In this document: one piece after another, positions 7,942-46,377 of the stretch | Position numbering within the stretch: position 1 is the stretch's first letter | How the letters are laid out: each line of letters opens with the position of its first letter | Source: a virus | Taxonomy: Duplodnaviria > Heunggongvirae > Uroviricota > Caudoviricetes | Reading direction: 5' to 3' (one strand) | DNA: 64,000 nt | IMG/VR virus record: IMGVR_UViG_3300020061_000005 | Translations under genes and position numbers: made by a program | The notes under the pieces: model-generated | What the model was told of the DNA's origin: nothing | The model's input: only the letters and a program-made list of their open reading frames with translations | Databases searched by the model: none

Positions 7942-7955
7942 CCAAAGAGGTACGT

Positions 7956-17816: not shown

Positions 17817-18091
17817 CCGTCCAACAGATCAAGCAGGTGGATATCCAGTTTCCGGAGGATGAGAAGCTGGCGCGGCTGGTGCAGTCGTTGCGTAGCACGC
17901 AGAGCGCGCTCAACGCGATCATCACGGCGAACAACGCAGCGCAGCTTCTGAAACCATCGTCAGATGCGACCAACGAGCTGGCGCCAGGGCAGTGGGAAGC
18001 GGTGGTGGTTGATGATGGGGTCGCGCCGGTGCTGAGAGTCCGCTATAACCGCGCGGGCTCCACATTCACCGCAGAGGTTCCCCTGGTATGA
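17813..18091 (+). CDS. Hypothetical protein
   Basis: ATGA-coupled ORF. Confidence 0.4.
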   Translation: MTVQQIKQVDIQFPEDEKLARLVQSLRSTQSALNAIITANNAAQLLKPSSDATNELAPGQWEAVVVDDGVAPVLRVRYNRAGSTFTAEVPLV

Positions 18092-18672
18092 ACATTTACT
18101 CCATCGTGGTCGATGACTTCCTGGCTGACTTCGAAGCGGCCCGCAAGTATGCGGACAGCGCGGTCTACAAGGATGTCGAGAATCCGGCCGATGGGGTGAT
18201 CTACCCGATGATCAGTCCGGATCTCGCACCCGGCATGGGCAGTGAGATCGCAATGAACCTGATGTTCATCATGGGCAAGCCGATCTACATGAACATGGCC
18301 TTCATGCGGCTCTCCCCGGCCGGGGTCTACGTGCCGCACCAGGCGCACACCGACAAGCTGATGGGCGAGTGGTCGATGATGCTGTACCTGAATAGGCCAG
18401 AGCATTGCTCCGGTGGCACCTCAGTGCTACGCCACGTCACTGGTATGGATCGGCACCCCACGCAGCCGGAGGATATCCAGATTTGGCGCGAGGACATGAA
18501 CGATGAATCGAAGTGGCAGATCACCGATTTCTGCCGTATGCAGACCAACCGGGCTTTCATCTTCCGCTCCGACCTGTTCCACCGAGCGGAGCCGGCTGGT
18601 GGCTTCGGCCGCGGGCCGCGCAATGGCCGGTTGGTCTGCACGGCGTTCTTCAACACCACGGAGCCAACATGA
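18088..18672 (+). CDS. Hypothetical protein, possible 2OG-Fe(II) oxygenase-like
   Basis: An HxD...H arrangement (HQAHTD ... LFHRAEP) with an RxS motif. Weak evidence. Confidence 0.3.
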   Translation: MNIYSIVVDDFLADFEAARKYADSAVYKDVENPADGVIYPMISPDLAPGMGSEIAMNLMFIMGKPIYMNMAFMRLSPAGVYVPHQAHTDKLMGEWSMMLYLNRPEHCSGGTSVLRHVTGMDRHPTQPEDIQIWREDMNDESKWQITDFCRMQTNRAFIFRSDLFHRAEPAGGFGRGPRNGRLVCTAFFNTTEPT

Positions 18673-19160
18673 TCGCCCGCCACGCGACACCGGCTGATAT
18701 CCCCCGGATCATCGAGATGGGGCGCCCCTTCTGGGAGCAAACCCTGTACCGGGACACACCGTACGACCCGGATTCGATGGATCACTTCTGCCGCGTCATG
18801 CTCGACATGAACATGCTGCTGGTGGCGGAATTCGACGGGAAGGTGGTCGGCGCGGTGGGTGGGGTGCTCTCCCCGCTGTATGCCAACATGGATGTCCTGG
18901 CGGGGGCGGAGCTATTCTGGTGGGTAGAAGAAGGGTATAGAGGCGGGGGTGCAGGTAAACTCCTGCTCCACGGAATCGAAGAGGCAGCGGCAAAGGCCGG
19001 TGTCACCTATTGGGCGATGATGGTCCTTGAGGGTGCTGGTGACCCCGAGCGCGCTGCTGCCATCTATCTCGCCAACGGCTATCAGCGGGCAGAGAGAACC
19101 TTCATGAAGAGGTTGTCATGGCCGCCATCACCGGAGCCGCAATCGCCGCCGCAGGCGTAG
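18669..19160 (+). CDS. GNAT family N-acetyltransferase
   Basis: Internal ATG with GGAG and ATGA coupling. YRGGGAGKLLL is motif A. 163 aa. Confidence 0.65.
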   Translation: MIARHATPADIPRIIEMGRPFWEQTLYRDTPYDPDSMDHFCRVMLDMNMLLVAEFDGKVVGAVGGVLSPLYANMDVLAGAELFWWVEEGYRGGGAGKLLLHGIEEAAAKAGVTYWAMMVLEGAGDPERAAAIYLANGYQRAERTFMKRLSWPPSPEPQSPPQA

Positions 19161-20155
19161 CGAACAGCGCGTATCAGGGCAGCAAGAACCGTCAATCCAT
19201 CCGGGATCAGAACAACCGGACAGCCTGGATTGGCGACGCCCAGCAAGATCTTGTCTCGCGCTCCACCGAGATCGCGGATCGTCCCTATACGCCTTACAAC
19301 GGCAATCGGGTAGCTGACCTGTCGCAAAACGAAACGACTGCGATCGGAATGGCGAACAACGCCACCAACTTCAACGACTCGCGCGGCTATCTCGATAAGG
19401 CTGGCCAGCAGGCCGACCTGGTAGCCAACAACGACTGGAACGCCGACACCGCACAGAAGTACATGGACCCGTACATCGGCCAGGTGGTCGACAACTCGCT
19501 CAAGAAAGAGAACACCGCCTACCAGCAGAATCAGAACCAGATCCGCGGCAATGCAGCCAAGGCCGGCGCCTTCGGTGGAAGCCGCGCCACGCTGTTGGAG
19601 ACGCAGGGCACCGGGGAGCACCTGCAGGCGGTTGGCGATATCACCAGCAAGGGCTACTCCGATGCGTACCGCACGGCAATCAATACGTGGCAAGCGGACA
19701 ACTCGCGCCGCCTGCAGGCATCGCAGGCGTATTCCAATGTGGGCGGCGATATTTCAAAGCTCAACTCATCGCAGATCACTGACCTGCTGCGCACCGGCCA
19801 GGCCGACCGGGTGCTGCGCCAAGCGAATGCCGACTTCGATTACCAGCAGTTCATCGAGAACCGGGATTGGGATGTCAACAACCTGGATCCGCTGTTCAAA
19901 GCAGTCGGGGGTGCAACGGGTGGACCTACGCCGCAGCAAGTGCCGCGAGACAACACTGCGGGGCAATTGCTGGGTTTGGCGGGAACGCTAGTGGGCTACT
20001 TCGGTGGCACCGGCGATAGTGGAGGTAGCAGCGCGCCTTCTGCCATGTGGAGTTCGGATCGCATCGAGCAAGCGGGGCTCGCGCAGAACCAGCAGAACCT
20101 GAATGCCTATTGGGATGCGCAGCCCGTGCCTGACCTGGCGCCGATGGAGGGTTGA
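19118..20155 (+). CDS. Internal virion protein-like (Gln/Asn-rich)
   Basis: 345-aa ORF sitting directly before the giant protein. Confidence 0.45.
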   Translation: MAAITGAAIAAAGVANSAYQGSKNRQSIRDQNNRTAWIGDAQQDLVSRSTEIADRPYTPYNGNRVADLSQNETTAIGMANNATNFNDSRGYLDKAGQQADLVANNDWNADTAQKYMDPYIGQVVDNSLKKENTAYQQNQNQIRGNAAKAGAFGGSRATLLETQGTGEHLQAVGDITSKGYSDAYRTAINTWQADNSRRLQASQAYSNVGGDISKLNSSQITDLLRTGQADRVLRQANADFDYQQFIENRDWDVNNLDPLFKAVGGATGGPTPQQVPRDNTAGQLLGLAGTLVGYFGGTGDSGGSSAPSAMWSSDRIEQAGLAQNQQNLNAYWDAQPVPDLAPMEG

Positions 20156-21444
20156 TCATGGATCTCACGAGCTATCGAGACCAGCTACGCAAGCGCATCG
20201 ACTCGATGCAGTTGCCGACCATGGGAGCCACCGAAGGCGATCTGGTGCCACCGCAAGCTGGTGGGGCAATGCAGCCAACGCCATCACCGCAGCCGCCCAA
20301 CACGCCACCGTTCACCGATACCGGCGAGGGTCCGTGGGTGGATGAAGGCGGTGAGCCTGCGCCGCCTGCTGATCAGGCAGCGGATCTCACTGCGGGACAA
20401 GGCGGTGCTGGTCCTTCGCCGCAGCAAGGTACTGGCGGTGCGCCAGGAGCACCTGGTGGAGCAAAGCCGCCGTTCGAGATCAAATACAAAGAAGGCGCGC
20501 TCGATGAGGTGAAGGGGTTCGGCGATGTCGTGAAGGCGATGCAGCCGAAATCACAGAACAAATACATGGATTGGTGGGAGCAGCAATACGGCTCCATCGA
20601 TCAGAAGTGGGATGCGCTGCAGTCGGAGCTGGGTAAGCGGCCAGACCCGAAGGGCAAGCTATCACGCAAAGAGAAGTTCGGGCTCCTGATGGAGTTCGGG
20701 CTGGAACTCATGCGTGCATCGCAACCTGGACAAGACACCGGAGGTGGGGCGACGACTGCAGCGTATAACGCCGTCCGGAACACGCAGGCCGAGCGCAAGG
20801 GTGATCAGCGCGATTGGGATATCCAGAATCAGCTGGTGACGCAAGGCCGGCAGAAAGATCTCTCCGCCATCGGCTCGCGCGGCCAGGCCATGGCGACGCA
20901 ATCGAGGATGGATGCCGATCAGTCACGTTCTGCCAAAGACCTGGCCATCGCTGGTCGTCCGCCGAAGAAGCAGACGATCAACACCGACCAGGGCGTGATG
21001 GATATCTCCGGGGATGAGCCCAAGGCGATGACGGTCGACGGCAAGCCGCTCACCAACCTGAAAGTTGGATCACGTGGTGGTGCTGCGCATGACACGCGCC
21101 CTGCGGAGCAGAAGAAGTACGAGCACCTGGTGAGCCTGGGCGTTGGTGATGAGACCGCGCGGCGCATCGCGTATCGTCAATCGAGCGGTGATCCTCGCAA
21201 GGACTACAAGGATGTGTTGAACGCGACGCTGCGCGCGAATGGCGGCGATCAGGATGCCGCGAAGCAAGGTGCGCAGGAGTTCATCGATATGGCCTACGGT
21301 CCGGATGCGATCAACAACGCGCGCACGCCGGACATCAACAAGCCGAACCAGATCAACTCGCAAACTGACTACGACGCACTCCCCGTGGGCGCGACCTACA
21401 CCGCACCCGATGGCAAGCTACGCAAAAAACAAGCTCCAAAGTGA
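20152..21444 (+). CDS. Pro/Gly-rich internal virion protein-like
   Basis: 430-aa ORF with a low-complexity N-terminal half. Confidence 0.45.
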   Translation: MIMDLTSYRDQLRKRIDSMQLPTMGATEGDLVPPQAGGAMQPTPSPQPPNTPPFTDTGEGPWVDEGGEPAPPADQAADLTAGQGGAGPSPQQGTGGAPGAPGGAKPPFEIKYKEGALDEVKGFGDVVKAMQPKSQNKYMDWWEQQYGSIDQKWDALQSELGKRPDPKGKLSRKEKFGLLMEFGLELMRASQPGQDTGGGATTAAYNAVRNTQAERKGDQRDWDIQNQLVTQGRQKDLSAIGSRGQAMATQSRMDADQSRSAKDLAIAGRPPKKQTINTDQGVMDISGDEPKAMTVDGKPLTNLKVGSRGGAAHDTRPAEQKKYEHLVSLGVGDETARRIAYRQSSGDPRKDYKDVLNATLRANGGDQDAAKQGAQEFIDMAYGPDAINNARTPDINKPNQINSQTDYDALPVGATYTAPDGKLRKKQAPK

Positions 21445-21447: not shown

Positions 21448-24400
21448 ATGGCCAATTTCTGGGACAACGATCCGGTTGAGGCAGAGCCGTGGGAAGCTGA
21501 TCCGGTAGTCGATCTCAACCCTGCGAAGAAGTCAGTGGAGGCGCCGATCGAGGCACCTTCGTATCTGGATGCGCTGAAGGAACGCACCGCGGATCTCGGC
21601 GACTCGCTGATGCACCTACCCGGTGAAGTGAAGAACCTGGTGGGGCCAACGGCACGCGAGATGGGCGCTGGTATCAACCGTGCTGGTTACGATCTGCTGG
21701 CCAAGTCGAAGGACTACCAGGCGCGGCGCCTGCGTGATCTCTCCATTCCGGAGCTGCGTGAAGGTGGCAACACGCCGGCCGATGTGGCAAGCGAAGAAGC
21801 GTTCAACGCTGAGATGAAATCCGGCGCTGCCGGTCGCGTCGCGCGTCGCGCCAACCTTGAACAGCAGGAGGCAATCCGTCCTGAAGCTGGTCCACTGGAA
21901 AGCGCCGCCGCGCAGGGCCTATCGAGCGCGGCGATCTCCGCGCCTGCGATCCTGGCGGCTGGACCGGTGATGGGCTCTGCGTTGCTCGGCGCCGGCACCG
22001 GTGGCCAGCGCTACACGCAGCTCCTGGACAAAGGTGTGCCGCAAGCTGCCGCGGCGAAGAGCGCGCTCATGATGGGCTCGCTTGAAGGGCTGACCGAATT
22101 CCTCCCCGGCCAGGCGCTCGTCAAGAACGTGCCGGGATTCTGGAAGCATCTGGGCGAGTTCATGGTGGCGGAGCTTCCAGGGGAGAACATCAACTCGGTC
22201 GCGCAGTTGATCGATGACTACCGCCTGCAGCTACGCGATGACGTCACCAAGGATGACTTGCTCAAGGCGATCGAGGACACGACGCTGCAGACCATTATTG
22301 CCGGCGGCGCGCAGACCGGTGCGGCTCACCTGCTGCAGCAAAGTGTCGATAAAGCGAACCAGGCGAAGCCAGCAGCGGGTAAGACTCCACAGTTCACGAT
22401 GCCCGAGCCGGTGGTGCCTGAGCCGGCGCCGCTGTCCCTGCCAGCGCCAGGTGCCACCTGGACACCGCCTGATGCTGATTTCGTGGTGGATGCGGCCGGC
22501 AACGCCGCCCCTCCTGGTGAGCAACAGAAGGCGCTGCCACACTTGCCGGAAGCGCCCACCGGACAGTTCGAAGCTGGACAGGAGGGTGTCCGACAGCTCA
22601 CTACACCAGAGGTTTCAGCCCGTGAGCAAGAAGAAGAGCGACGCCAATCACTTGGGCTCGGAAACGTCGAGCGAGTCCCAGGATCTGAGCCTGTTTCACG
22701 GGGAACGTCGCCGCAGGAGACCACCGACCTATCGGCGCTCCAAGCGGCCAAAGATGGCACTGCTACGCCGGAACAACTCGCCGGACTGAAGGGGTTCGTC
22801 AACGGGAGCGGCCAGATCCTACCCGCTGGCCGGCGCGCGCTCAAGAGCGCGCAAACCGAGCAGGTAAACGCAGCCGCCACGCTCGCCGGTCCAAAGGCGC
22901 GCATCACTGTAAAGCCACGTGAGGGTCGCTGGGTCGTCGCAATGGACGGCGAGGAGCAGGTGGTGGTCGACAGCGAAGCGCTCGCCAGGGACATCGCCAA
23001 GGAGGCCAGGCAGCACCTGTCGGGTCCGGTGGAAGTGCTGGGCCAGCAAGTGGAGCATCCAACCGATCCCACCGAAGGCCAGAAGGACGCCGGCAACTAC
23101 AAGAAGCCGACGATCAATTTCGCAGGGATGGAGATCGCGATCGAAAACCTCACCGGCTCAACCCGCCAGGGAAAGGATGCGAGCGGCAAGCCGTGGTCGC
23201 GCGTGATGCGCGCACCGTACGGCTACGTGAAGCGCACCGAAGGGGCTGATGGTGATCCGGTGGACGTGTATCTCGGGAAGAACCCGCAGTCCGACTCGGT
23301 GTACGTGATCGACCAACTCTCGCCCAATGGCAAAGCGTTCGATGAACACAAGGCCGTGATCGGAGTGAACAACCAGCAGGAGGCCGAGGCGCTGTACCTC
23401 AAGCACTACCCTGCCGGGTGGAAGGGCATGGGCGCGGTGACGCCGATGCCGGTTGCGAAGTTCAAGGAGTGGGCGCGCAGCGGCAACACCAAGGCGCCAG
23501 TCACCTGGAAAGATCCGGCGCTGCTGCCGAAGCGCTCGACCAAAACGCCACAGGCGCAGCACGACTCGATCCTGGAATTCATCTCGAAGACGAAGCTGCA
23601 CTCCGCTGAGAAGAACGGGCTCGACCTGGATGCGCTGGTGGCTGAAGGGCTCGATCCGAAAGAGCTGCGCGCCGCGAAGGGCCACGGGATCAATCGGCCG
23701 TTCACCAAGGGCGGTGCATCGCTCGATGCGATGGCTGAGATGCTGAATGATGCCGGCTACCCGGTGCAGAACGAGAAGGGCGACTACGACAAGAACAAGT
23801 TGCTCGATCTGATCACGAAGGAGCTGCGCACCGGATCGCGCGTCACCGCGCAGGCCAAGAATTTCGACATGGAGCTGGAGGATCTGTCGAAGAAGTACGA
23901 CCAGCCGGCCAAGGATCTCGACATTCCTGATGACCTGACCGGGATGACGGATGAGGAGCTGTCTGCGCTGTCGCGCCGGATCGATGAGATGAGTGCCAAG
24001 CTCGATGAGGCCGAGGCCAAGGTGGAGGCGACGCGCGAGCGCAAGTCAATCCAGGATGAGCCGATGTTCCAGCGCGACAAGAGCGCTAAGGATCGCGTGG
24101 ATGAAGAAAAAGAGCGGCGCGCCGAGAAGAATCTGCTGATCCAACACAACCTGACGGCGGCGAATCTGCTGCACTCCGTGAAGATGGGCGGCATCCCGAT
24201 TCCTTCGCTTGCGATCACGAAGAAGGACCAGGGTCTCACCAACTTTGGTGAGATCACCTTGCTGGGTCCGGTCCAGATGGCCGATCCGCGAGGCTACGCG
24301 CGCACTCGTGTGTTCGGTGCGGATGTGTACTCGCCGCGGTATCCCAGCGTCTCGTACTCGGTGAGCAGCAAGGCTGTGGATCGACTGTCCGCGTTGATCG

Positions 24401-27400
24401 CGCCGCACGCGAAGCGATTGGGGCATCGTGAATTCATCGGCGGGGATGAGCTGAAGGATGGTCCGCGGGAGTTGGAGAACACTGCTGCCGTGATGGATAT
24501 GTTCCTTGCCAGTAAGGGCATCACCGTCAAGGTAGATCCGAAGGAGGAGCAGTCTTACGTGGCCACCGAAGCGCTGCGCAAGCGCATCCGCACGGAGGGT
24601 ATGGAGGAGGAGTTCAGCGATTATGTCTCCGAGCTGTTCGCCTCGCTGTCGCCGGCCGAGCGGCTGTTCCAGGGATTCACCTACTCGGGTAATCGCCGCT
24701 ACAAGCCGCACACCCTGGCCAATGTGATGGCGATGCTGAAGAAGGAGCTGCGCGGCGGTGAAGGCTTCAACTACGGTGTGGGATCGCTGCGCTCGAAGTT
24801 CACGCCGCAATTCAGTAGCCTCAAACAGATCAGCGAGAATCAGGATCGCCTGCTGACCGAAGAAGAATTCAAAGCCGTCAAGGAGCAGATCGATACTGAG
24901 TTTTGGGAAGTCGCTGGCAAGCTCGCGCCGTACAGCGGGCGCGGCAAGGAATTCGGCTGGGGCGACACCGTGATCCACATCATGGAGGACGCCGCGAAGA
25001 TGGGGATCGGTCGTGCGCTCAACGAGTACAGCATCGAAGATGTCTCCGATGACGTTCAGAACGACATGCGCGAGTTCATGGGCAAGCTGCGCACGCTACC
25101 CACGGAGTACTTCGAAGCGAAGATCATGCGCGAGGTGGATCTGGCCGAGTTCGCGCACGCCGTGGCGCCCAAGGGAACCTCACAGAAGGCGCTCGATGCG
25201 CTGGCAGCGCGTGGTGTCAAGGTCACGTTCTACAAAAAGGGTGATGATGCGGATCGGCGCCGAGCCATCCAGCAAGCAGCCGAATCATCTTCCAATGTGC
25301 TGTTCAAGAAAGGTGAGGCGCCGCCAGCCGGTGCGCGCACGCTCACTAGTCGAGATATTCGCGATGAAGTGAACCGCATCCTCAAGGAGTTCAAGACCCG
25401 GCCGCGGCTGCTGGTGGTGGACAACGGCAACCAATTCCCGCCGGATCTGCTGGCGCAGATGAAGGGCGGTCGCTCCGATCCCAACGAGGTGCACGCGGTC
25501 CAGTGGAACGGCGGCATCTACATCAACGCCTCTAAGTACACCAACCTGGAGGATGTGTTCGACACCGTGATGCATGAGACGGTGGTTCACTTCGGGCTGC
25601 GCTCGGTGCTGGATATCGACACGCACACCGCGATCCTCGATGGCATTGCCGCGAGCCAGCCGATGGCGGTTCGTCGCATGGGCCAGTTGGAGTACGGTAG
25701 CAAGTTCAATTGGGAAAACCTGCAGCAGCGCCGCATCGCAGCCGAAGAGGTGCTGGCCTACTACGCACCGCTGTACCTGAAAAATAAACCGGTGCCTGGC
25801 GCGCTCAAGCAGTGGCTGAAGCAGTTCATCGACGCGATCAAGGCGTTCATCGCGCGCGTTCGCGGCACGAAGCCCGACACGATGGTGTTGCCTGATGACT
25901 TCGATAAGAAGGCGATGAACAACATCATCGACTCGCTGCACGACTACCTGAAGGGCGGCAAGCAGCCCGACTACGTGGAGACCGCAGAGCAGGCGATGGC
26001 ACAGAAGCCAGCGCCCACCTTCTACTCCGCGCTCACTCGCTCCGCGATGGAAGCCAAGCGCACCATCGGCACCGCGGCGGAGTGGCTGAACACGCTGCGC
26101 AACATGCCTGGGGTCAAGAAGGAAGAGATGGAGTGGTCCGGCCTGGAGGAGTGGATCAACGGCCTGGATCATCGCGCCACGCAAGCGGAGGTGGTCGACT
26201 ACCTGCAGAAGAACGAGATCGAGGTGCAGGATGTCGTGAAAGGCGCCGAGTTCGAAGGACAGGACACGCCAGCGCAGGCGTTGAAGCGCCAGAACGATGA
26301 TTTGGTGGTGAAGATCAGCGCGCTGGGATTTGCCCCGAGCATGTATGACGGCACCTCGGACATGTTTCTCTACCGCAACGATGTCAATGAAACCTACCGC
26401 CACGTCGGCACCAACGTTGGTCGGTGGAAGGATTTTGCCACCGGTGCATGGGCACCTGATGCGGTAGCTAAACTCGCCGATGAGTTGCGTGCCGTGCGCC
26501 AGGAGATGATCAACGTGTCCTGGAAGCGCGACCGCAACGCGGCCACGCAGTACGACCAGTACACCACGCCAGGCGGTGAGAACTACCGCGAGCTGCTGAT
26601 GACGCTGCCAGCGCAGCCGTCGCCTGATGCTGGACCGCGCGGCTGGGGAGATACCGGTGGCGGCACCTACGATACGGTCAACTATCACTCCTCGCATTGG
26701 GATGAGCAGAACATTCTGGCGCACGTCCGCTTCGATGAGCGCACCGACGCCGATGGCAAGCACGTGCTGTTCATCCAGGAGATCCAGAGTGATTGGCACC
26801 AGGCTGGGCGCAAGCGCGGCTACAACGAACCGGACACCATGCAGAAATACATGGAGGCCAAGAAGAGGAAAGGCCAAGCCCGTGAGGAAGCTGCTGCCGC
26901 ACTCAGGCGCAACGACTATCTTGGTTTCGACCAAGTGGTGGATGCAGCGGAGGCGGTGCGTTCGCATCCTGACTGGCTGCAACGCTGGCACGTAGAGGAT
27001 GCCGCAGATGTCGCCGCTATCCAGGAGTACGTCGATGCGCACCAGGAAGTGGAGCGCTTCGGCAAGATGAGTGATGTGCCAGATGCTCCCTTCAAGACCA
27101 CCTGGCCGGAGCTGGCCTTCAAGCGAATGATCCGGTGGGCTGCGCAGCATGACTTTGATCGTATCGCTTGGACGCCAGGGCAGATCCAGGCAGATCGGTA
27201 CGACCTGAGCAAGCAGGTTGGCAGCGTGATCGCCACCAGGGAACGCAGCGATACTGTCTGGCTGGAGATCCGCAAACCAAACGGTGCGTTGATCGACCGC
27301 GGTGAACGGCAGATGTCGCGCCTGGAGGAGATGGTCGGGCAAGACCTGGCGCGCAAGATCGAAGCGCTGCCAGTTGGTGAGGCTCGTAAGTTTACCGGCC

Positions 27401-30252
27401 TGGATCTGCGTGTCGGCGGCGAGGGCATGATCGGCTTCTACGACAAAATCTTGCCGCAGACCGTCAACAAGATGGTGAAGCGCTTCGGTGCGAAAGTCGG
27501 CACGACGAACATGTCGGTTGGCGAATTTCGCGGTGCGGTGAGTGGCCAGATGGTTATGGAGGATCTTGGAATCCCGGAAGAACAACGCCGCGACTATTGG
27601 GGTGGACTTGAGTCTGTCCGGCGCAGCGAGTTGATGAATGAATATCGAAGCAGGGCACAGACTCGCACGCAGCCATTTCACTCCGTCGATGTCACCGACT
27701 CCATGCGCGCCTCTGCGATGGAAGGCCAGCCGATGTTCCAGCAGCGTCACAACGAGGAAGCGGTGGAGCGCACCCGGCCGGTGGGCGAGCAGATCGCCGG
27801 CTACAAGGCAGCGGCACAGCGCGCCATTGATGCCTGGAACCACAAGGTTGGCTGGCTGTGGGGACCGCTGGGCAAGCTGCCCGAGAAGGACAACTATCTG
27901 CGGCTGCGTTACCGAACACTCGGTGACCTAACGGAGATTCGCGTGATCTCGCGCGATATCTTCGACACACTGATGAAGTCCACACCGGAGGACAGCCAGG
28001 CGGCTTATGAGTACCTGACCAACCGCGAGGCGAAGGCAGACACCATCCAGGATCAGAAGATCCGGGCCACCGCAGAGCGCGTGAAGGCGATGTTCGATGT
28101 ACAGGGCCAGCGCCTGGTCGACGCCGGACTGATCCCGCAGGAGTCCTTCGATACTTACGCCGGCCAATATCTGCCGCGGCTGTACCTGAAGCACATCCTG
28201 GGCGACCAGCTGCACGCAGCGATGGGCTCGGGCAAGAAGATGTCGAACCTCGGGCAGACCAAGAAGCGCGACAACACCATTCCCGAAGAGGTCCGCAAGG
28301 TGATTCTCGGGCAGATCCAAGACCCGGCGTTCCTCGCCTCCTTCGGCGTGTCACGCACCATGCGGGATCTGGCGATGATGGATTTCCTCTCCGAAGTGTC
28401 GAAGAACGAGGCATGGACGCCCCCTGAGATGCTGGTCGAGTGGAATGGCCGCAGGGTCTCGCCGTTCTGGATGCACAGCGAGGCGGTACGGCTGCGCAAG
28501 ATGGCCGACTTCATGAAGGGTCACGAGCTGGCTGGTAAGGCGCGTGCCGTGGCGGATCGCATGGACACGCTGGCGAACGCGGCCATTGCGAGGCTTGAGC
28601 GTGCGGAGCTGGATGGCTTCAAGCAGATCCCAGATACACCCTCCTACGGCGCGCTGCGCGGACTGTGGGTGCGCAATGAGATCTACGAAGACCTGGTGGG
28701 TGCGGCGAACTTCATCGATCCGAACTCCGCGGAAGCCTGGATGCGCAAATGGTCCGGCAAGATCACGCGCGCCTGGAAGACCAGCAAGGTGGCGCTCAAC
28801 CCGCCTTCGCACTTTCGCAATATGATGGGCAACTCGATCATGATGCAGTTGGGTGGCGTGCCTTTCCGCACGCAGCCGCTGCGCATGGTGCAAGCGATCA
28901 ACTCGCTGCGTCACAAGGATCGCTTCTACCAGGTTGCCAAGAAGTACGGCATGTTCGAAGCCACCTTCGCGAACGTGGAGCTGGCGCGCATCGCGGATGA
29001 GTGGTTGTCGCTGCAGGACACCAAGGGCTCGCATTTTGGCAAACTGAATGCGATGGCCGGACGTGTGACGAATGCGATCGGCGATCTCTACCAGTTCGAG
29101 GAGGCGCTGTTCAAGCTGATGAAGCTGCGCCACAACATTGAGCAAGGCATGGAGGAAGGGGACGCGATGATCGACGCCCACAAGTGGCTGTTCGATTATT
29201 CCCTGGTGCCGCGCTGGGTTCGCTGGATGCGCAATGCGCCGTTGGGCGTGCCATTCCTCACCTACACCTACAAGGCGGTCCCGCGGATGCTCGAAGCCGC
29301 GATCCTCACCCCGCATCGGTACTTGCCGTACATCGCTGCGGTTTATGCCTTGAAGGAGCTGCTGGAGTATGCCTTCGATGTCGATGACGATGATCTGAAG
29401 AAACTCAAGCAGGCATACCCGAGTTACATGGAGAACAAGGGCGGCCTGATGCTGCTGCCCACGCGCGACGCCAACGGCAACCTGCAGCTCTTCGACATGG
29501 GCTATATCGTTCCCTGGGGCATGGCCGCAGATGTCGCCCGCCAAGGCGAGCACATGGAAGGTGGGATGATCCTTGACTCGCTTGGCATTATGAGTGGACC
29601 GATCGCCGACAACATCGCCGCCTGGAAGACCGGCATCGATCCCTTCACCCGCAAGCCGATCGTGAACCCGAGTGACAGCACGAAGGATCAGATGAAGCAA
29701 CGGCTGTGGTACGCATGGTCGCTCGCCGCACCGCCATTCCTCACTCCCTCTGGTGCTGGCGGCAAGCTCTACGACTACGCCACTGGCGCGGTCGACAAGC
29801 GCACTGGCGAGCAGAAGCTGACCGGCGGCCAGGTGGCGGCACGCTTCTTCGGCCTCACGATCTATCCGGTGAATCCACAGAAAAGCCGTGACACCAACAT
29901 CTACTTCATGCAGAAAGAGATCGATGAGATGCAGTTCCGGGAGCGGCAGCTCACGCGCGACAAGAACCTGGATGCAGCCGGCAAGGCCGAGATCCACAAA
30001 GCGTTTCGCGAGATGGTGAAGCAGAAGCGCACTGAGCTACAGCAGTACAAAAAGGACTCGGAGGTTCACCCGAACCTGCGAAATCAGGAGATAGAGGACA
30101 AGGTTGGAGCCTTGATCGATGGGAAACGGAAGCCCGAAGCGGTAAAAGCGCTGCGTGATGCCGGCTACCCAGCGCTCGCCGGACTACTTGAGGAAATGCC
30201 AGCTCGACACCGGCCGGTGGTTGCGCAGGCACTTCAACAAATGATGGCGTAG
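21448..30252 (+). CDS. Giant multi-domain protein (2934 aa); polyvalent or ejection protein-like
   Basis: Single 8.8-kb ORF with high GC3 throughout. It embeds an inorganic pyrophosphatase-like signature, DGDPVDV...FDEHKAVIGV...YLKHYPAGW. It also carries an HW(D/E)EQNILAH...FIQEIQSDWHQ block. Confidence 0.7.
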   Translation: MANFWDNDPVEAEPWEADPVVDLNPAKKSVEAPIEAPSYLDALKERTADLGDSLMHLPGEVKNLVGPTAREMGAGINRAGYDLLAKSKDYQARRLRDLSIPELREGGNTPADVASEEAFNAEMKSGAAGRVARRANLEQQEAIRPEAGPLESAAAQGLSSAAISAPAILAAGPVMGSALLGAGTGGQRYTQLLDKGVPQAAAAKSALMMGSLEGLTEFLPGQALVKNVPGFWKHLGEFMVAELPGENINSVAQLIDDYRLQLRDDVTKDDLLKAIEDTTLQTIIAGGAQTGAAHLLQQSVDKANQAKPAAGKTPQFTMPEPVVPEPAPLSLPAPGATWTPPDADFVVDAAGNAAPPGEQQKALPHLPEAPTGQFEAGQEGVRQLTTPEVSAREQEEERRQSLGLGNVERVPGSEPVSRGTSPQETTDLSALQAAKDGTATPEQLAGLKGFVNGSGQILPAGRRALKSAQTEQVNAAATLAGPKARITVKPREGRWVVAMDGEEQVVVDSEALARDIAKEARQHLSGPVEVLGQQVEHPTDPTEGQKDAGNYKKPTINFAGMEIAIENLTGSTRQGKDASGKPWSRVMRAPYGYVKRTEGADGDPVDVYLGKNPQSDSVYVIDQLSPNGKAFDEHKAVIGVNNQQEAEALYLKHYPAGWKGMGAVTPMPVAKFKEWARSGNTKAPVTWKDPALLPKRSTKTPQAQHDSILEFISKTKLHSAEKNGLDLDALVAEGLDPKELRAAKGHGINRPFTKGGASLDAMAEMLNDAGYPVQNEKGDYDKNKLLDLITKELRTGSRVTAQAKNFDMELEDLSKKYDQPAKDLDIPDDLTGMTDEELSALSRRIDEMSAKLDEAEAKVEATRERKSIQDEPMFQRDKSAKDRVDEEKERRAEKNLLIQHNLTAANLLHSVKMGGIPIPSLAITKKDQGLTNFGEITLLGPVQMADPRGYARTRVFGADVYSPRYPSVSYSVSSKAVDRLSALIAPHAKRLGHREFIGGDELKDGPRELENTAAVMDMFLASKGITVKVDPKEEQSYVATEALRKRIRTEGMEEEFSDYVSELFASLSPAERLFQGFTYSGNRRYKPHTLANVMAMLKKELRGGEGFNYGVGSLRSKFTPQFSSLKQISENQDRLLTEEEFKAVKEQIDTEFWEVAGKLAPYSGRGKEFGWGDTVIHIMEDAAKMGIGRALNEYSIEDVSDDVQNDMREFMGKLRTLPTEYFEAKIMREVDLAEFAHAVAPKGTSQKALDALAARGVKVTFYKKGDDADRRRAIQQAAESSSNVLFKKGEAPPAGARTLTSRDIRDEVNRILKEFKTRPRLLVVDNGNQFPPDLLAQMKGGRSDPNEVHAVQWNGGIYINASKYTNLEDVFDTVMHETVVHFGLRSVLDIDTHTAILDGIAASQPMAVRRMGQLEYGSKFNWENLQQRRIAAEEVLAYYAPLYLKNKPVPGALKQWLKQFIDAIKAFIARVRGTKPDTMVLPDDFDKKAMNNIIDSLHDYLKGGKQPDYVETAEQAMAQKPAPTFYSALTRSAMEAKRTIGTAAEWLNTLRNMPGVKKEEMEWSGLEEWINGLDHRATQAEVVDYLQKNEIEVQDVVKGAEFEGQDTPAQALKRQNDDLVVKISALGFAPSMYDGTSDMFLYRNDVNETYRHVGTNVGRWKDFATGAWAPDAVAKLADELRAVRQEMINVSWKRDRNAATQYDQYTTPGGENYRELLMTLPAQPSPDAGPRGWGDTGGGTYDTVNYHSSHWDEQNILAHVRFDERTDADGKHVLFIQEIQSDWHQAGRKRGYNEPDTMQKYMEAKKRKGQAREEAAAALRRNDYLGFDQVVDAAEAVRSHPDWLQRWHVEDAADVAAIQEYVDAHQEVERFGKMSDVPDAPFKTTWPELAFKRMIRWAAQHDFDRIAWTPGQIQADRYDLSKQVGSVIATRERSDTVWLEIRKPNGALIDRGERQMSRLEEMVGQDLARKIEALPVGEARKFTGLDLRVGGEGMIGFYDKILPQTVNKMVKRFGAKVGTTNMSVGEFRGAVSGQMVMEDLGIPEEQRRDYWGGLESVRRSELMNEYRSRAQTRTQPFHSVDVTDSMRASAMEGQPMFQQRHNEEAVERTRPVGEQIAGYKAAAQRAIDAWNHKVGWLWGPLGKLPEKDNYLRLRYRTLGDLTEIRVISRDIFDTLMKSTPEDSQAAYEYLTNREAKADTIQDQKIRATAERVKAMFDVQGQRLVDAGLIPQESFDTYAGQYLPRLYLKHILGDQLHAAMGSGKKMSNLGQTKKRDNTIPEEVRKVILGQIQDPAFLASFGVSRTMRDLAMMDFLSEVSKNEAWTPPEMLVEWNGRRVSPFWMHSEAVRLRKMADFMKGHELAGKARAVADRMDTLANAAIARLERAELDGFKQIPDTPSYGALRGLWVRNEIYEDLVGAANFIDPNSAEAWMRKWSGKITRAWKTSKVALNPPSHFRNMMGNSIMMQLGGVPFRTQPLRMVQAINSLRHKDRFYQVAKKYGMFEATFANVELARIADEWLSLQDTKGSHFGKLNAMAGRVTNAIGDLYQFEEALFKLMKLRHNIEQGMEEGDAMIDAHKWLFDYSLVPRWVRWMRNAPLGVPFLTYTYKAVPRMLEAAILTPHRYLPYIAAVYALKELLEYAFDVDDDDLKKLKQAYPSYMENKGGLMLLPTRDANGNLQLFDMGYIVPWGMAADVARQGEHMEGGMILDSLGIMSGPIADNIAAWKTGIDPFTRKPIVNPSDSTKDQMKQRLWYAWSLAAPPFLTPSGAGGKLYDYATGAVDKRTGEQKLTGGQVAARFFGLTIYPVNPQKSRDTNIYFMQKEIDEMQFRERQLTRDKNLDAAGKAEIHKAFREMVKQKRTELQQYKKDSEVHPNLRNQEIEDKVGALIDGKRKPEAVKALRDAGYPALAGLLEEMPARHRPVVAQALQQMMA

Positions 30253-30280: not shown

Positions 30281-30598
30281 GTGATGATGGAGCCGTGGGC
30301 TTGGGCCATCATCCTCCCAGTCATCATCGGTCTGATCGGTGTCATTTACACTGCTGGTCAACGCCGCGATGATAAGCAGGATGTACGCATGGAGAAGAAC
30401 GAACAGGCGTTCGATGACAAGGTGAAAGCTGACGCGGCGCTACACGAGCGAGTGGTGCGCACCGAAACCAAGGTTGAAATCAACGTGGACGAGATTGCTA
30501 AACTTCGGGACATGCGCCACAGCATCTTGGATGACGTAACTAAAACACTGGCTGGCTGGTACAGCGAAATCATGGATCAGATAAGAAAATGGAAATAG
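30281..30598 (+). CDS. Membrane-anchored coiled-coil protein (lysis cassette; holin/antiholin/spanin-like)
   Basis: N-terminal TM segment WAIILPVIIGLIGVIYTA followed by charged helical repeats. Confidence 0.45.
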   Translation: MMMEPWAWAIILPVIIGLIGVIYTAGQRRDDKQDVRMEKNEQAFDDKVKADAALHERVVRTETKVEINVDEIAKLRDMRHSILDDVTKTLAGWYSEIMDQIRKWK

Positions 30599-31119
30599 AA
30601 ATGACACCGGAAACGCTCCTCAAGATCATGCCGTACACCGCCTCGCGCGCCGGCACCTATGCGCCACTGCTAACGGCAGCAATGGTTGAGTTCAATATCG
30701 ACACCGCGCTGCGCCAGGCTGCGTTCTTGGCGCAGGTGTGCCACGAGTCTGGATCGCTGCGATACACGCTGGAGGTTGCGGATGGACGGGCATACGAGGG
30801 CAAAGCCGATTTGGGTAACACCCAGCCAGGAGATGGACCACGCTATCGAGGTCGGGGGCTCATACAGATCACCGGACGAGCCAACTACGGGGCCGCAGGA
30901 TTGGCGCTCGGACAGGATTTACTTGCGACTCCCGAAATGCTGGAGCAACCCGCGCTTGCTGCTCGCTCTGCAGGTTGGTTCTGGAAAAGTCGAGGACTGA
31001 ACGCGATGGCCGACACGGATGCATTCGGCTCGATGACCAAGAAAATCAACGGCGGCTACAACGGTCTGGATGACCGCCTGGTTCACTGGCTACGGGCTCG
31101 CAAGGTACTCGGGCTATGA
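30589..31119 (+). CDS. Endolysin, glycoside hydrolase family 19 (chitinase-like lysozyme)
   Basis: AAFLAQVCHESGSLRYTLE ... YRGRGLIQITGRANY ... WFW ... INGG are GH19 hallmarks. Confidence 0.8.
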   Translation: MEIEMTPETLLKIMPYTASRAGTYAPLLTAAMVEFNIDTALRQAAFLAQVCHESGSLRYTLEVADGRAYEGKADLGNTQPGDGPRYRGRGLIQITGRANYGAAGLALGQDLLATPEMLEQPALAARSAGWFWKSRGLNAMADTDAFGSMTKKINGGYNGLDDRLVHWLRARKVLGL

Positions 31120-35314: not shown

Positions 35315-35863
35315 CTAGAAGGATGCACCGCGCCTGCCCCTCTTGATGGGAATCCGTTCCATATAATCCTGTAGCGCTTGAGAATTTCGCAGCGCTGCGT
35401 ACGCGCGAGCCAGATCACGAAGCACGGTGCGGTAAGTCAAATGATACTTATCGGCTATCTGCTTGTAGGTGAGCTTTTCGAAGGCGTGCTCCATCAACAG
35501 GTACGCCTGTCGCGGTGGAAGCGTCTCCAATGCCCGATACAACACCACCTCGAACTCCTCGGCTGAGAGAATGTCATCTGGCGTACCGCGCTCGATCTCA
35601 ATGTCCTCCAGTCCCTCATCATCATGTGGATGGGCGTTGCGGCTGCGCTCACGCCATTCATTCGCGACGTTGGCAGCGATGCGGAAGAGATAGCTCTGCG
35701 GGTTAGTGATCAGCACATCATCGCTGTAGCGCAGGACGCGAAGGAACACTTCTTGGGCAAGATCATCTATGTCGGCGGTGGGAATGGAGGAGCGAGTAGC
35801 GAGCCACCGTTTTATCGGGGCTTGCCACGTGGAGAACAGTGCAGCCAGGTTATTGGCCGGCAT
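35315..35863 (-). CDS. ECF-type sigma-70 family RNA polymerase sigma factor
   Basis: Region 2 is DDLAQEVFLRVLRY...YLFRIAANVANEWRER. Region 4 is LPPRQAYLLMEHAFEKLTYKQIADKYHLTYRTVLRDL. Start taken at the internal Met to avoid overlap with Lar. Confidence 0.7.
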   Translation of the reverse strand: MPANNLAALFSTWQAPIKRWLATRSSIPTADIDDLAQEVFLRVLRYSDDVLITNPQSYLFRIAANVANEWRERSRNAHPHDDEGLEDIEIERGTPDDILSAEEFEVVLYRALETLPPRQAYLLMEHAFEKLTYKQIADKYHLTYRTVLRDLARAYAALRNSQALQDYMERIPIKRGRRGASF

Positions 35864-39068: not shown

Positions 39069-39092
39069 CGGCGCGAGTATTACCTGTGTTAC
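39069..39092 (-). promoter_or_regulatory. Phage promoter-motif instance (TTGCGG-N-GGTAACAC-AGGTAATAC) upstream of AAA+ ATPase operon
   Basis: + strand reads GTATTACCTGTGTTACC, between the PurA-like stop and the AAA start. Confidence 0.45.
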
Positions 39093-40216: not shown

Positions 40217-41133
40217 ACCCTGACTGCGCCTCCCGTATCGGTGCCCTTGGCCAGCGCGCTCGTTGCCGTGCGCACCACCAAAGCAGTGGAACCATCCCAG
40301 CTATTCACCACCGCATCCACGTCCGCACCCTCGTTGATCTGGATGGTGGATACGATCACCTCGCCCAGCTTCGTATGGTCCGACAGCAGTAGCGCTCGCT
40401 CGCCCAGCACCTTGCGCCAGGCGGGCAGGAAGCGGTCGCTGTAGGAACCTTCCTGAACGACCAGGTGGAACACGTGGTACATGCGCTGCGCGAGCTGCAG
40501 CAGTTCGGCTGCGGAGTAATCGCGCTCCACATCATCGCCGATGAAGCGCTTCAGGTGGTCCTTGGTGAGACCGGCCGGCACGCTTTCATCCCCGAGCGTG
40601 AACAGGTAGCCCTTCTTGTTGCGCTTCTCCAGGCAATCGATGGAGGTGTGCAGGCCAGCGAAATACCAGGGCAGATCGTAGGATTCGGTCTGGTTGCCAC
40701 CACCGTCGCCCTCGATGTAGATATCGGTGAGCTGATCCACGATGCGGTTATCCGCCTCGAACTGCGATACCTGCAGCGGCACCTGGTCGCTGCGCGCATC
40801 GCCGATCGCCATGAACATCAGATGCGGATCGGTGACCGGCTTGCGTGACAGGATCTCGTTGAACAGCGTGCCCAGGCCGTGCTTCGCGATCTTCTCGGCC
40901 AGCATTCCCATGCTGCCTGTCACATCCACGCCCACGATGATCGCGGTGGAGTTCGGGTTGTCGATCGAATCGCGGGACTCGCGGATCTTCACGCCGTGGG
41001 GATTGAGGTGCTTGGCAGCACCGGTGAGCACAGCCGATGCCGTGCGGGTCTTGTATATGTCATCGACGCTCTTGCTCGCGATGTTCGCCGAGTAACTTGC
41101 GTACGCATTGGAGTCAAACCTTCCACTACCCAC
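40213..41133 (-). CDS. von Willebrand factor A domain protein
   Basis: MIDAS motif in IIVGVDVTGSMG. GTG start six nt after GGAGA. Confidence 0.65.
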   Translation of the reverse strand: MGSGRFDSNAYASYSANIASKSVDDIYKTRTASAVLTGAAKHLNPHGVKIRESRDSIDNPNSTAIIVGVDVTGSMGMLAEKIAKHGLGTLFNEILSRKPVTDPHLMFMAIGDARSDQVPLQVSQFEADNRIVDQLTDIYIEGDGGGNQTESYDLPWYFAGLHTSIDCLEKRNKKGYLFTLGDESVPAGLTKDHLKRFIGDDVERDYSAAELLQLAQRMYHVFHLVVQEGSYSDRFLPAWRKVLGERALLLSDHTKLGEVIVSTIQINEGADVDAVVNSWDGSTALVVRTATSALAKGTDTGGAVRV

Positions 41134-46321: not shown

Positions 46322-46352
46322 GTGGCCGCACCTTGTTTCGTGTAGGTGGATT

Positions 46353-46377
46353 GTGTTACCACTATTACCTTGAGAAT
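46353..46377 (-). promoter_or_regulatory. Phage promoter-motif instance (GGTAATAGTGGTAACAC, minus orientation) upstream of exo-recT operon
   Basis: Motif copy GTGTTACCACTATTACC on the + strand. Confidence 0.4.

What the first reader, a model, noticed from the sequence alone, without database searches (positions are those of the whole stretch)
21448..30252. 2934-aa giant protein with an embedded inorganic-pyrophosphatase-like signature
The region is one uninterrupted ORF of 8.8 kb with uniformly high GC3. It follows two putative internal-virion proteins and precedes the lysis genes, so it is probably an ejected/internal virion or polyvalent protein.

- Around nt 23180-23440 it carries DGDPVDV...FDEHKAVIGV...LYLKHYPAGW.
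- That block matches the family-I PPase PROSITE pattern D-[SGDN]-D-[PE]-[LIVMF]-D-[LIVMGAC] and its surrounding architecture.
- Further downstream it carries a conserved HWDEQNILAH...HVLFIQEIQSDWHQ block.
- It also has HETVVH, which is HExxxH and not HExxH.
Basis: partly seen in the sequence, partly recalled or inferred. Interest (0 to 1): 0.7.

Follow-up and report, generated by a model that had tools for sequence, protein, structure and literature searches.

The report
Giant phage polyvalent effector protein

Summary
One ATG-to-TAG ORF, 21448..30252 (+), encodes 2,934 aa, and every quoted motif lies where stated. The identical protein was assembled independently from two sequencing runs.

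Residues 544-676 match Pfam PF18823 "InPase" (E=1.7e-50), the pyrophosphatase-like domain defined for phage polyvalent proteins by Iyer et al. 2017. Residues 888-1043 match PBECR5, a predicted RNase. HETVVH is the published HEXXXH variant of the polyvalent-protein zincin peptidase: H1376, E1377, H1381 and E1434 are conserved.

The last 830 aa form an all-helical module. It is C-terminal in all 13 relatives that aligned to it, whatever effector domains they carry.

The gene closes the structural operon, after ejection-protein-like genes and before the endolysin, and this order recurs in relatives.

Virion packaging, injection and enzyme activities are inferred, not shown. The PPase fold was not modelled here.

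Verdict: a new member of a known kind. Interest is moderate to low, apart from the unannotated modules.

The parts
21448..30252 (+). Whole gene: 2,934-aa polyvalent protein, stop codon included
   Evidence: identical product in two independent assemblies
21448..22572 (+). M1, N-terminal conserved module (aa 1-375). It contains the protein's only strongly hydrophobic stretch, an Ala/Gly-rich segment at aa 161-181 (nt 21928-21990). No family annotation.
   Evidence: Shared with 9 relatives, near the N-terminus in all. Hydropathy. No hit in Pfam, NCBIfam or PDB sequences. In P0032 it follows LPD22 but is not LPD22.
22573..23052 (+). Low-complexity Ala/Gly/Pro/Ser/Thr/Gln/Glu-rich linker (aa 376-535)
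   Evidence: Composition 0.6-0.7 AGPSTQE; few relatives align here
23077..23475 (+). InPase domain (aa 544-676), the polyvalent-protein clade of family-I pyrophosphatase-like domains. It holds DGDPVDV, FDEHK and LYLKHY.
   Evidence: PF18823 E=1.7e-50. Conserved in 52 non-redundant relatives: E566, R573, W583, Y591, D601, D603, D606, D622, Q623, D632, E633, K635, Y650. Pa193 portal C-terminus E=1e-41. hhalign to E. coli Ppa: 74% probability over 28 columns.
23515..24102 (+). Highly charged, probably helical linker (aa 690-885)
   Evidence: KRDE fraction up to 0.47; only weak coiled-coil-type Pfam noise
24109..24576 (+). PBECR5 domain (aa 888-1043), a predicted metal-independent endoRNase of the Barnase-EndoU-ColicinE5/D-RelE fold
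   Evidence: PF18814 E=3.5e-24. H900 (HN[LI][TS]) is present in all 7 relatives that reach that column, and S920 (PS[LV]A) in all 8 aligned relatives. The active-site scheme comes from Iyer 2017.
24577..25299 (+). M5 (aa 1044-1284), an unannotated module that travels with PBECR5
   Evidence: phrog_22978 aa 1031-1276. It co-occurs with PBECR5 in 8 relatives. The whole PBECR5+M5 cassette is absent from the closest relative P0002, whose alignment to the query breaks at aa 877-1284; the equivalent stretch of P0002 starts with a sub-threshold ART-PolyVal match at 874-919.
25300..25977 (+). M6 (aa 1285-1510), zincin-like metallopeptidase (MPTase) of the HEXXXH clade. HETVVH lies at aa 1376-1381.
   Evidence: H1376, E1377, H1381 and E1434 conserved in >=80% of 16 sequences. 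The AF2 model shows an N-terminal helix, three strands, a helix bearing HEXXXH and a later helix bearing E1434, matching the published description. No Pfam peptidase model hits.
25981..27750 (+). M7 (aa 1512-2101), an unannotated and very widespread module holding HWDEQNILAH and HVLFIQEIQSDWHQ. It has a small N-terminal helical sub-domain and a GNAT-like alpha/beta core.
27751..30249 (+). M8 (aa 2102-2934), an all-helical C-terminal module. Proposed to be the delivery or virion-anchoring chassis.
   Evidence: It reaches to within about 180 residues of the C-terminus (mostly within 20) in all 13 relatives that aligned to it. 51 invariant columns in 11 sequences. AF2 pLDDT 67, all helices. No specific PDB fold match. 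Foldseek against BFVD gives E~6e-21, TM~0.6 to segments of viral polyvalent proteins carrying other effectors. 2 of 11 members weakly hit phrog_22602 "virion structural protein".
18088..21444 (+). Upstream syntenic block: DUF6445/2OG-Fe(II)-oxygenase-like gene (18088-18672), GNAT acetyltransferase (18669-19160), 345-aa ejection-protein-like gene (19118-20155) and a 430-aa unannotated gene (20152-21444)
   Evidence: The same order (DUF6445, GNAT, two proteins, a 101-aa BubE gene, giant, endolysin) precedes the relative P0003.
30281..31119 (+). Downstream lysis genes: a 105-aa protein with a weak spanin-like match and a GH19 endolysin

Best explanation
The gene encodes a phage-type polyvalent protein in the sense of Iyer et al. 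2017.

Shown here: it is a mosaic of at least four recognisable enzyme-like modules strung between two conserved terminal modules.
- InPase, aa 544-676.
- PBECR5 RNase, aa 888-1043.
- HEXXXH zincin peptidase, aa 1285-1510.
- A GNAT-like module, aa 1512-2101.
- The terminal modules are M1 (aa 1-375) and M8 (aa 2102-2934).

Also shown: it is the last gene of the late structural operon of a podovirus-like phage.

Inferred mechanism:
1. The protein is made late and built into the capsid interior together with the two smaller ejection-type proteins encoded just upstream. The conserved terminal modules, M8 above all, would serve as the assembly and translocation chassis.
2. At infection it is threaded through the tail into the cell with the DNA.
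3. The HEXXXH peptidase then cuts the long low-complexity or charged linkers and frees the effector modules.
4. The InPase domain hydrolyses a phosphoanhydride. This is either PPi, to pull early transcription and replication forward, or a nucleotide-derived defence signal.
5. PBECR5 cleaves host or defence RNAs.
6. The GNAT-like module acylates an unknown host target.
For: Domain calls:
- PF18823 E=1.7e-50 and PF18814 E=3.5e-24.
- HEXXXH plus a downstream Glu are conserved, and this clade is described in the literature.
- The InPase acidic and basic residues matching E. coli PPase E20, R43, Y55, D65, D67, D70, D97, D102, K104 and Y141 are conserved in 52 relatives.
- The PBECR5 His and Ser are conserved.

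Mosaic nature:
- Relatives share single modules in different orders and with different partners.
- In the closest relative, P0002, the PBECR5+M5 cassette is replaced.

Late or virion context:
- The gene starts 4 nt after the upstream gene.
- An SU10-type adaptor and virion structural genes lie upstream, with an ejection-protein-like gene; the endolysin lies downstream.
- The giant gene is likewise the last gene of the block before the lysis genes, or before the strand switch, in three relatives.

M8 as a shared chassis:
- It is C-terminal in all 13 relatives that aligned to it.
- It is structurally matched (E~1e-20) to segments of viral polyvalent proteins carrying ART, Zeta toxin, helicase, methylase, RelA/SpoT or lytic transglycosylase domains.

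Other support:
- An InPase domain occurs on the capsid-internal C-terminus of the Pa193 portal. The 2024 cryo-EM paper saw no density for residues 529-765.
- Some relatives carry an SLT lytic transglycosylase, as the T7 internal virion protein gp16 does.
Against: - There is no direct evidence of packaging or injection.
- No MuF or portal domain is fused to the protein.
- M8 has no relative with an experimentally proven virion location. The only hints are a weak PHROG hit in 2 of 11 members and an unverified "Tail protein" label for Anabaena phage A-4L.
- The classical PPase profile is below threshold, and I did not model the InPase fold.
- No Pfam peptidase or GNAT model hits M6 or M7.
- No cleavage sites are known.
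Confidence: 0.8

Rival explanations
1. The protein is mainly a structural internal-core or ejectosome protein, the functional equivalent of T7 gp16. It would be needed to build the channel across the cell envelope. The enzyme-like domains would be passengers of minor importance or inactive.
For: - It occupies the third and largest position after two smaller ejection-type genes and before lysis.
- The 830-aa helical M8 and the M1 module, with its Ala/Gly-rich hydrophobic segment, are the most syntenically constant parts.
- Some relatives carry SLT domains.
Against: - There is no sequence or fold similarity to any solved ejection protein.
- There is no lytic transglycosylase domain in this protein.
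- The catalytic residues of InPase, PBECR5 and the peptidase are conserved, which argues for active enzymes.
- This reading is compatible with the best explanation rather than exclusive of it.
Confidence: 0.3
2. The InPase domain does not act on inorganic pyrophosphate. It would instead degrade a nucleotide-like phosphoanhydride, such as an alarmone, a defence second messenger or an NTP derivative. In that case the domain is an anti-defence enzyme rather than a metabolic helper.
For: - Iyer et al. raise this possibility because related InPase domains are linked to NUDIX, GNAT and TmrB genes.
- The clade lacks the beta-hairpin of classical PPases. In E. coli PPase that region carries K29 and E31 (my knowledge of the enzyme).
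- The position equivalent to K142 is not conserved; it is Pro655 here and mostly Ser or Glu in relatives.
- The partner domains (RNase, GNAT-like) are conflict-type effectors.
Against: - The metal-binding Asp cluster and the Lys and Tyr of classical PPases are retained, so PPi hydrolysis remains the simplest expectation.
- No substrate data exist. The only paper in the library that uses the term InPase is the 2017 computational study.
Confidence: 0.3
3. The protein is not packaged. It would be a late-expressed cytoplasmic multi-enzyme acting inside the producing cell, for example in superinfection exclusion or host shut-off late in infection.
For: Packaging was not shown, and there is no MuF or portal fusion.
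Against: - The gene sits in a conserved position inside the virion-gene block.
- M8 is shared with viral polyvalent proteins.
- The class as a whole is associated with virion genes.
- A giant multi-effector protein has a clear rationale only if it is delivered before any phage gene is expressed.
Confidence: 0.1
4. The 8.8-kb ORF is an assembly or sequencing artefact that fuses several genes.
For: The source is metagenomic, and several modules also occur separately elsewhere.
Against: - The sequence is identical in two independent assemblies.
- Relatives of 2,800-4,700 aa are collinear over most of the length.
- The codon-position GC pattern is uniform.
Confidence: 0.02

Closest known systems
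Phage-type polyvalent proteins (Iyer, Burroughs, Anand, de Souza & Aravind 2017, J Bacteriol 199:e00245-17)
   Same: It is a giant single polypeptide combining unrelated enzymatic domains. It carries InPase, PBECR and the zincin MPTase hub domain in its HEXXXH variant. It is encoded among late virion genes, and modules are shuffled extensively between relatives.
   Different: Only about 290 of the 2,934 residues match a Pfam polyvalent-protein model above threshold. M1, M5, M7 and M8 have no Pfam, NCBIfam or PDB match. I could not check them against the authors' LPD alignments that never entered Pfam.
Family-I soluble inorganic pyrophosphatase (E. coli Ppa; Pfam PF00719; PROSITE PS00387)
   Same: The DGDPVDV signature is identical to that of E. 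coli Ppa, and the YGY motif is shared. Equivalents of the metal- and phosphate-binding residues are conserved.
   Different: PF00719 scores 14-15 bits against a cut-off of 23.5. PDB PPases reach only E 0.3-1.4 with a family profile. According to Iyer et al. the clade lacks the beta-hairpin between strands 1 and 2. The K142 equivalent is not conserved. The domain is embedded in a giant protein rather than standing alone as an oligomeric enzyme.
Portal protein gp19 of Pseudomonas phage Pa193 and PB1-like phages (PDB 9B41)
   Same: It carries the same InPase clade domain, at residues 635-762 of 765 (E=1e-41). The domain therefore sits on a capsid-internal part of a virion protein.
   Different: There the domain is fused to a portal, not to a polyvalent protein. 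Residues 529-765 gave no cryo-EM density, so no experimental structure of this clade exists.
T7 gp16 / gp14-gp15-gp16 internal core (ejectosome) proteins
   Same: It is the largest and last of a run of ejection-type genes at the end of the structural operon. Some relatives carry an SLT lytic transglycosylase, as gp16 does.
   Different: No sequence or fold similarity was detected, and this protein has no transglycosylase domain.
Phage P1 DarB and phage N4 virion RNA polymerase (giant virion-packaged, injected proteins)
   Same: They are comparable in size and set a precedent for injecting a protein of 2,000-3,500 aa. phrog_10089 "DarB-like antirestriction" aligns to aa 115-688.
GNAT-fold proteins (TacT/AtaT tRNA-acetylating toxins, NatD, Rv1916/ICL2 C-terminal domain)
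   Different: Sequence identity is 3-14% and no GNAT Pfam model hits. The module is 590 aa with large insertions, perhaps two GNAT-like lobes. CoA binding has not been tested.

Membership tests
Polyvalent proteins (Iyer et al. 2017) | Two or more domains of disparate biochemical activity in one polypeptide | tested here: met
   InPase, PBECR5, HEXXXH zincin and a GNAT-like module
Polyvalent proteins (Iyer et al. 2017) | Phage type: encoded next to late or virion genes of a portal-terminase phage | tested here: met
   Adaptor, virion structural and ejection-like genes upstream, endolysin downstream, TerL in the window
Polyvalent proteins (Iyer et al. 2017) | Packaged in the virion and delivered into the host with the DNA | not testable with these tools
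   Needs virion proteomics or an infection assay
Pfam PF18823 InPase | Score above the curated gathering cut-off | tested here: met
   170.8 bits against 26.8; aa 544-676 cover positions 2-134 of the 135-position model
Family-I inorganic pyrophosphatase (PF00719 / PS00387) | PROSITE signature D-[SGDN]-D-[PE]-[LIVMF]-D-[LIVMGAC] | tested here: met
DGDPVDV at aa 601-607.
Family-I inorganic pyrophosphatase (PF00719 / PS00387) | Profile score above the Pfam or NCBIfam cut-off | tested here: not met
   PF00719 scores 14.3-14.8 bits against 23.5. NF002317 scores 14 bits against 200. PDB PPases reach E 0.3-1.4.
Family-I inorganic pyrophosphatase (PF00719 / PS00387) | Full set of active-site residues (E. 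coli E20, K29, E31, R43, Y55, D65, D67, D70, D97, D102, K104, Y141, K142) | tested here: inconclusive
   Equivalents of E20, R43, Y55, D65, D67, D70, D97, D102, K104 and Y141 are conserved. Only Y55-D70 is aligned by a tool; I mapped the rest by eye. The K29/E31 hairpin is reported absent, and K142 is not conserved.
Family-I inorganic pyrophosphatase (PF00719 / PS00387) | OB-fold barrel structure | not tested
Pfam PF18814 PBECR5 | [quoted passage not shown] | tested here: met
   86.4 bits against 25. H900 is present in all 7 relatives that reach that column, and S920 in all 8 aligned relatives. The assignment of these residues as catalytic is by analogy.
Zincin-like MPTase of polyvalent proteins, HEXXXH clade | HEXXXH on a helix, a Glu on a later helix, and a three-stranded sheet with an N-terminal helix | tested here: met
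   H1376, E1377, H1381 and E1434 are conserved. The AF2 secondary-structure order matches the published description.
Zincin-like MPTase of polyvalent proteins, HEXXXH clade | Match to a curated peptidase profile | tested here: not met
   No Pfam or NCBIfam peptidase family hits the query or 15 relatives
GNAT acyltransferase superfamily (module M7) | GNAT fold | tested here: met
GNAT acyltransferase superfamily (module M7) | Motif A (Q/R-x-x-G-x-G/A) and acyl-CoA binding | tested here: inconclusive
   R-V-G-G-E-G at 1988-1993 fits the pattern and is conserved as [KRQ]-[VI]-G-G-x-G. No GNAT profile hits, and binding cannot be tested here.
T7 gp16-type internal virion protein | Sequence or fold similarity, and an N-terminal lytic transglycosylase | tested here: not met
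N4-type virion RNA polymerase | Single-subunit RNA polymerase domain | tested here: not met

The most novel reading that the evidence does not exclude
About 1,400 residues (M7 plus M8) may represent two protein modules that have not yet been described.

M7 is a very widespread module: 11,594 cluster representatives, but only 5 of 50,697 deposited phage genomes. It is elaborated and GNAT-like, with invariant Glu, Gln, His and Tyr residues. It could be a new injected acyltransferase-type effector.

M8 could be the common delivery or anchoring chassis onto which podovirus-like phages of Betaproteobacteria and other hosts hang interchangeable effector cassettes.
Probability: 0.3. Interest if true: 0.55.

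Novelty: new member of a known kind. Interest (0 to 1): 0.33.

Why it matters
Polyvalent proteins are thought to be the first phage proteins to act in a newly infected cell, before any phage gene is expressed. They are therefore a reservoir of anti-defence and host-takeover enzymes. None of the domains found here has been tested biochemically in this setting, and the only paper in the held library that uses the term InPase is the 2017 computational study.

This example adds no new principle. It does give a clean, complete and independently re-assembled instance. In it, a conserved N-terminal and C-terminal chassis flanks swappable effector cassettes.

It also draws attention to a 590-aa enzyme-like module that is abundant in metagenomes, absent from Pfam and NCBIfam, and almost absent from cultured phages.

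Tried and rejected
- **Near-identical DNA in deposited phage genomes:** none. The protein-level search found only mosaic hits, the best covering 27% of the protein.
- **NCBIfam, on ten overlapping pieces:** only noise.
- **PDB sequence searches** with profiles of M6+M7 and M8, and with M1 and the two upstream proteins: nothing significant.
- **N4-like virion RNA polymerase, T7 gp16, DarB helicase or methylase:** no supporting domain.
- **Membrane protein:** only one hydrophobic stretch, aa 161-181, in 2,934 residues.
- **M7 equals LPD23**, suggested by an NCBI product name on Pseudomonas plasmids: rejected. LPD23 is a separate 58-residue domain elsewhere in those proteins.
- **M1 equals LPD22:** rejected. 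In P0032, LPD22 lies at 24-107 and the M1-like part at 114-375.
- **Names for short M7-containing proteins:** all are "hypothetical".
- **Promoter and terminator scan around the gene:** not above the shuffled expectation.
- **Experimental work on InPase:** none in the library.
- **Published virion proteomics for Anabaena phage A-4L "Tail protein":** one search listed nothing directly about it, and I did not pursue it.
Full report
**Observation**

The window holds one ORF from 21448 to 30252 on the + strand. It starts at ATG, ends at TAG and encodes 2,934 codons. It begins 4 nt after the stop of the upstream gene.

GC3 is 0.77 overall and 0.70-0.83 in 300-codon windows, with the coding pattern GC3 > GC1 > GC2 throughout.

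The identical 2,934-aa protein is called on contigs assembled from two different runs, SRR7015886 and SRR7015887. A frameshift or chimeric artefact is therefore very unlikely. The large antisense ORFs inside the gene are ordinary shadow ORFs of a high-GC3 gene.

**What the recognisable parts are**

- **InPase.** Pfam places aa 544-676 in PF18823 "InPase" (E=1.7e-50, nearly the full model). It places aa 888-1043 in PF18814 "PBECR5" (E=3.5e-24). Both families were defined by Iyer et al. 2017 for polyvalent proteins of phages and conjugative elements.
- **Relation to classical PPases.** The classical PPase family PF00719 reaches only 14-15 bits. A 28-sequence profile of the domain finds classical PPases in the PDB only at E 0.3-1.4. 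hhalign against E. coli Ppa (sequence recalled from memory) gives 74% probability over 28 columns around YGY...DGDPVDV.
- **InPase active site.** In 52 non-redundant relatives these residues are invariant or nearly so: E566, R573, W583, Y591, D601, D603 (Asp or Glu), D606, D622, Q623, D632, E633, K635 and Y650. By the tool alignment for Y55-D70, and by my own inspection for the rest, they correspond to E. coli PPase E20, R43, Y55, D65, D67, D70, D97, D102, K104 and Y141.
- **What this means for the domain.** It is a member of the polyvalent-type InPase clade with a largely intact PPase-like active site. It is not a member of the classical family by profile score. I did not model its fold.
- **PBECR5.** The PBECR5 part keeps the His and Ser expected for an active BECR RNase: H900 in all 7 relatives that reach that column, and S920 in all 8 aligned relatives.

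**HETVVH**

In an alignment with 15 relatives, H1376, E1377, H1381 and a downstream E1434 are conserved. The AlphaFold model of aa 1285-2101 has mean pLDDT 80.8. It shows an N-terminal helix, three short strands, a helix carrying HETVVH, inserted helices, and a helix carrying E1434.

This is the architecture Iyer et al. give for the zincin-like metallopeptidase of polyvalent proteins. They explicitly describe a clade with HEXXXH instead of HEXXH. No curated peptidase profile hits it.

**The HWDE...EIQSDWHQ block**

The block lies in a 590-aa module, M7 (aa 1512-2101), shared with at least 31 of the first 120 relatives. Neither the query nor 30 relatives' segments match any Pfam family. NCBIfam and PDB sequences give nothing either.

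An exhaustive phmmer search of 1.84 billion cluster representatives finds 11,594 proteins at E<=1e-3 and 5,054 at E<=1e-30. Among the 150 best listed, all but 3 are 1,000-7,000 aa long. Those checked are unnamed. In contrast, only 5 of 50,697 deposited phage genomes and 5 of 72,556 plasmids contain it.

E1715, E1778, Q1780 and Y1998 are invariant. H1750, H1759, R1761, S1781 and D1782 are nearly so. A loop [KRQ]-[VI]-G-G-x-G (R1988-G1993) precedes a long helix, in the form of GNAT motif A.

I read M7 as an elaborated GNAT-like enzyme module, possibly with two lobes, of unknown substrate. It may coincide with one of the LPD domains of Iyer et al. that never entered Pfam. I could not check this.

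**The ends of the protein**

- **M8 (aa 2102-2934)** reaches to within about 180 residues of the C-terminus in all 13 relatives that aligned to it, and has 51 invariant columns among 11 sequences.
  - Its model is all-helical with moderate confidence (pLDDT 67).
  - It has no specific match among solved structures.
  - Against predicted viral structures it matches segments of polyvalent proteins at E~6e-21 and TM~0.6. Their annotated domains are quite different: ART, Zeta toxin, helicase, methylase, RelA/SpoT and lytic transglycosylase. It also matches a protein labelled "Tail protein" in Anabaena phage A-4L.
  - Two of 11 members weakly hit a PHROG of virion structural proteins.
- **M1 (aa 1-375)** lies near the N-terminus in nine relatives. 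It contains the only hydrophobic stretch of the protein, an Ala/Gly-rich segment at aa 161-181.
- **The cassette between the ends.** The closest relative, P0002, aligns at 57-64% identity over the ends. Its alignment breaks across aa 877-1284, the PBECR5+M5 cassette. The equivalent stretch of P0002 starts with a sub-threshold ART-PolyVal match.

**Context**

The window is a phage genome far from any cultured phage; TerL is 38% identical to Roseobacter phage CRP-901 at best.

Upstream of the giant gene, on the same strand, lie:
- an SU10-type adaptor;
- fibre-like and virion structural genes;
- a DUF6445/2OG-oxygenase-like gene;
- a GNAT gene;
- a 345-aa protein matching "DNA ejection protein" (phrog_4287, E=2e-21);
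- a 430-aa unannotated protein.

Downstream lie a GH19 endolysin and other small lysis-type genes.

The same order precedes the relative P0003, with a small BubE gene inserted just before the giant gene. P0013 likewise closes its block just before a phage lysozyme gene. In the podovirus MW202615 the M8-bearing protein is the last gene before the strand switch.

M8 relatives in bacterial genomes are mostly from Betaproteobacteria (Pelomicrobium, Rhodocyclaceae, Uliginosibacterium). They include an ORF of at least 2,750 aa in an isolate genome.

**Mechanism**

Shown: the domain composition, the conservation of catalytic-type residues, the mosaic evolution, and the position in the late operon.

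Inferred:
- The protein is built into the capsid with the two smaller ejection-type proteins and enters the cell with the DNA.
- The HEXXXH peptidase releases the modules by cutting the long low-complexity or charged linkers (aa 376-535 and 690-885).
- The InPase, the RNase and the GNAT-like enzyme then act on PPi or nucleotide signals, on RNA, and on an unknown acyl acceptor.

The inference follows the argument of Iyer et al.. It is strengthened by two findings. First, the Pa193 portal carries the same InPase clade on its capsid-internal C-terminus. Second, M8 behaves as a shared chassis. No experiment on any of these domains was found.

**Verdict**

The thing itself is a new member of a known kind, so its overall interest is modest. 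The part that could repay further work is the unannotated two thirds of the protein. Within that, the best candidates are the very widespread GNAT-like module M7 and the conserved C-terminal module M8.

Noticed in passing
window 39089-40216 (-): A 375-aa adenylosuccinate-synthetase homologue (PF00709 E=4e-45; phrog_1211, the PurZ-type family, E=2e-62). It is shorter than the 416-position PF00709 model. This raises the possibility that the phage replaces adenine with 2-aminoadenine (Z) in its DNA. The neighbouring genes (AAA ATPase 37654-39036; 40213-41133; 41145-41624; 41608-42639) gave no Pfam hit that would identify DatZ or MazZ partners.
   Followed up: partly
window 18088-19160 (+): A DUF6445/2OG-Fe(II)-oxygenase-like gene and a small GNAT acetyltransferase gene sit among the ejection-protein-like genes just upstream of the giant gene. 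The same pair precedes the relative P0003 in locus L004. They may be further packaged or injected enzymes encoded as separate genes.
   Followed up: partly
window 24079-25299 (aa 877-1284 of the giant protein): The alignment to the closest relative P0002 (57-64% identity over the rest of the protein) breaks across aa 877-1284, the stretch that holds PBECR5+M5 here. The equivalent stretch of P0002 starts with a sub-threshold ART-PolyVal match at its residues 874-919. This looks like an example of effector swapping inside a conserved chassis.
   Followed up: partly
window 25981-27750 (module M7): There is a striking imbalance. The module has 11,594 relatives among 50%-identity cluster representatives from genomes and metagenomes. 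Yet it occurs in only 5 of 50,697 deposited phage records and 5 of 72,556 plasmid records, and it has no Pfam or NCBIfam family.
   Followed up: yes
PDB 9B41 chain L (Pseudomonas phage Pa193 portal gp19), residues 635-762: The portal of PB1-like myophages ends in an InPase domain (E=1e-41 with the family profile). The cryo-EM paper reports no density for residues 529-765 and does not mention a pyrophosphatase. The domain appears to have gone unremarked there.
   Followed up: partly
window 25285-27843 (-) and 28351-29997 (-): Antisense ORFs of 852 and 548 aa lie inside the giant gene. I regard them as shadow ORFs caused by high GC3, not as genes. They were not tested further.
   Followed up: no
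window about 35315-35863 (-), 43021-43815 (-), 44430-46411 (-), 7935-8957 (+): Other cargo of the phage: an ECF-type sigma-70 family factor (Sigma70_r4_2), an SPFH/Band 7 protein, a RecE/RecT-like recombination pair and a nucleotide-sugar epimerase. A 1,205-aa ORF at 91-3708 has no hit in Pfam or PHROGs.
   Followed up: no
locus L006 190-8442 (Pelomicrobium sp. G1, NZ_JBQACR010000005.1): An ORF of at least 2,750 aa ending in an M8 module (39% identity) lies on a 178-kb contig of an isolate genome. It is probably a prophage relative and would be a culturable system for testing packaging.
   Followed up: partly
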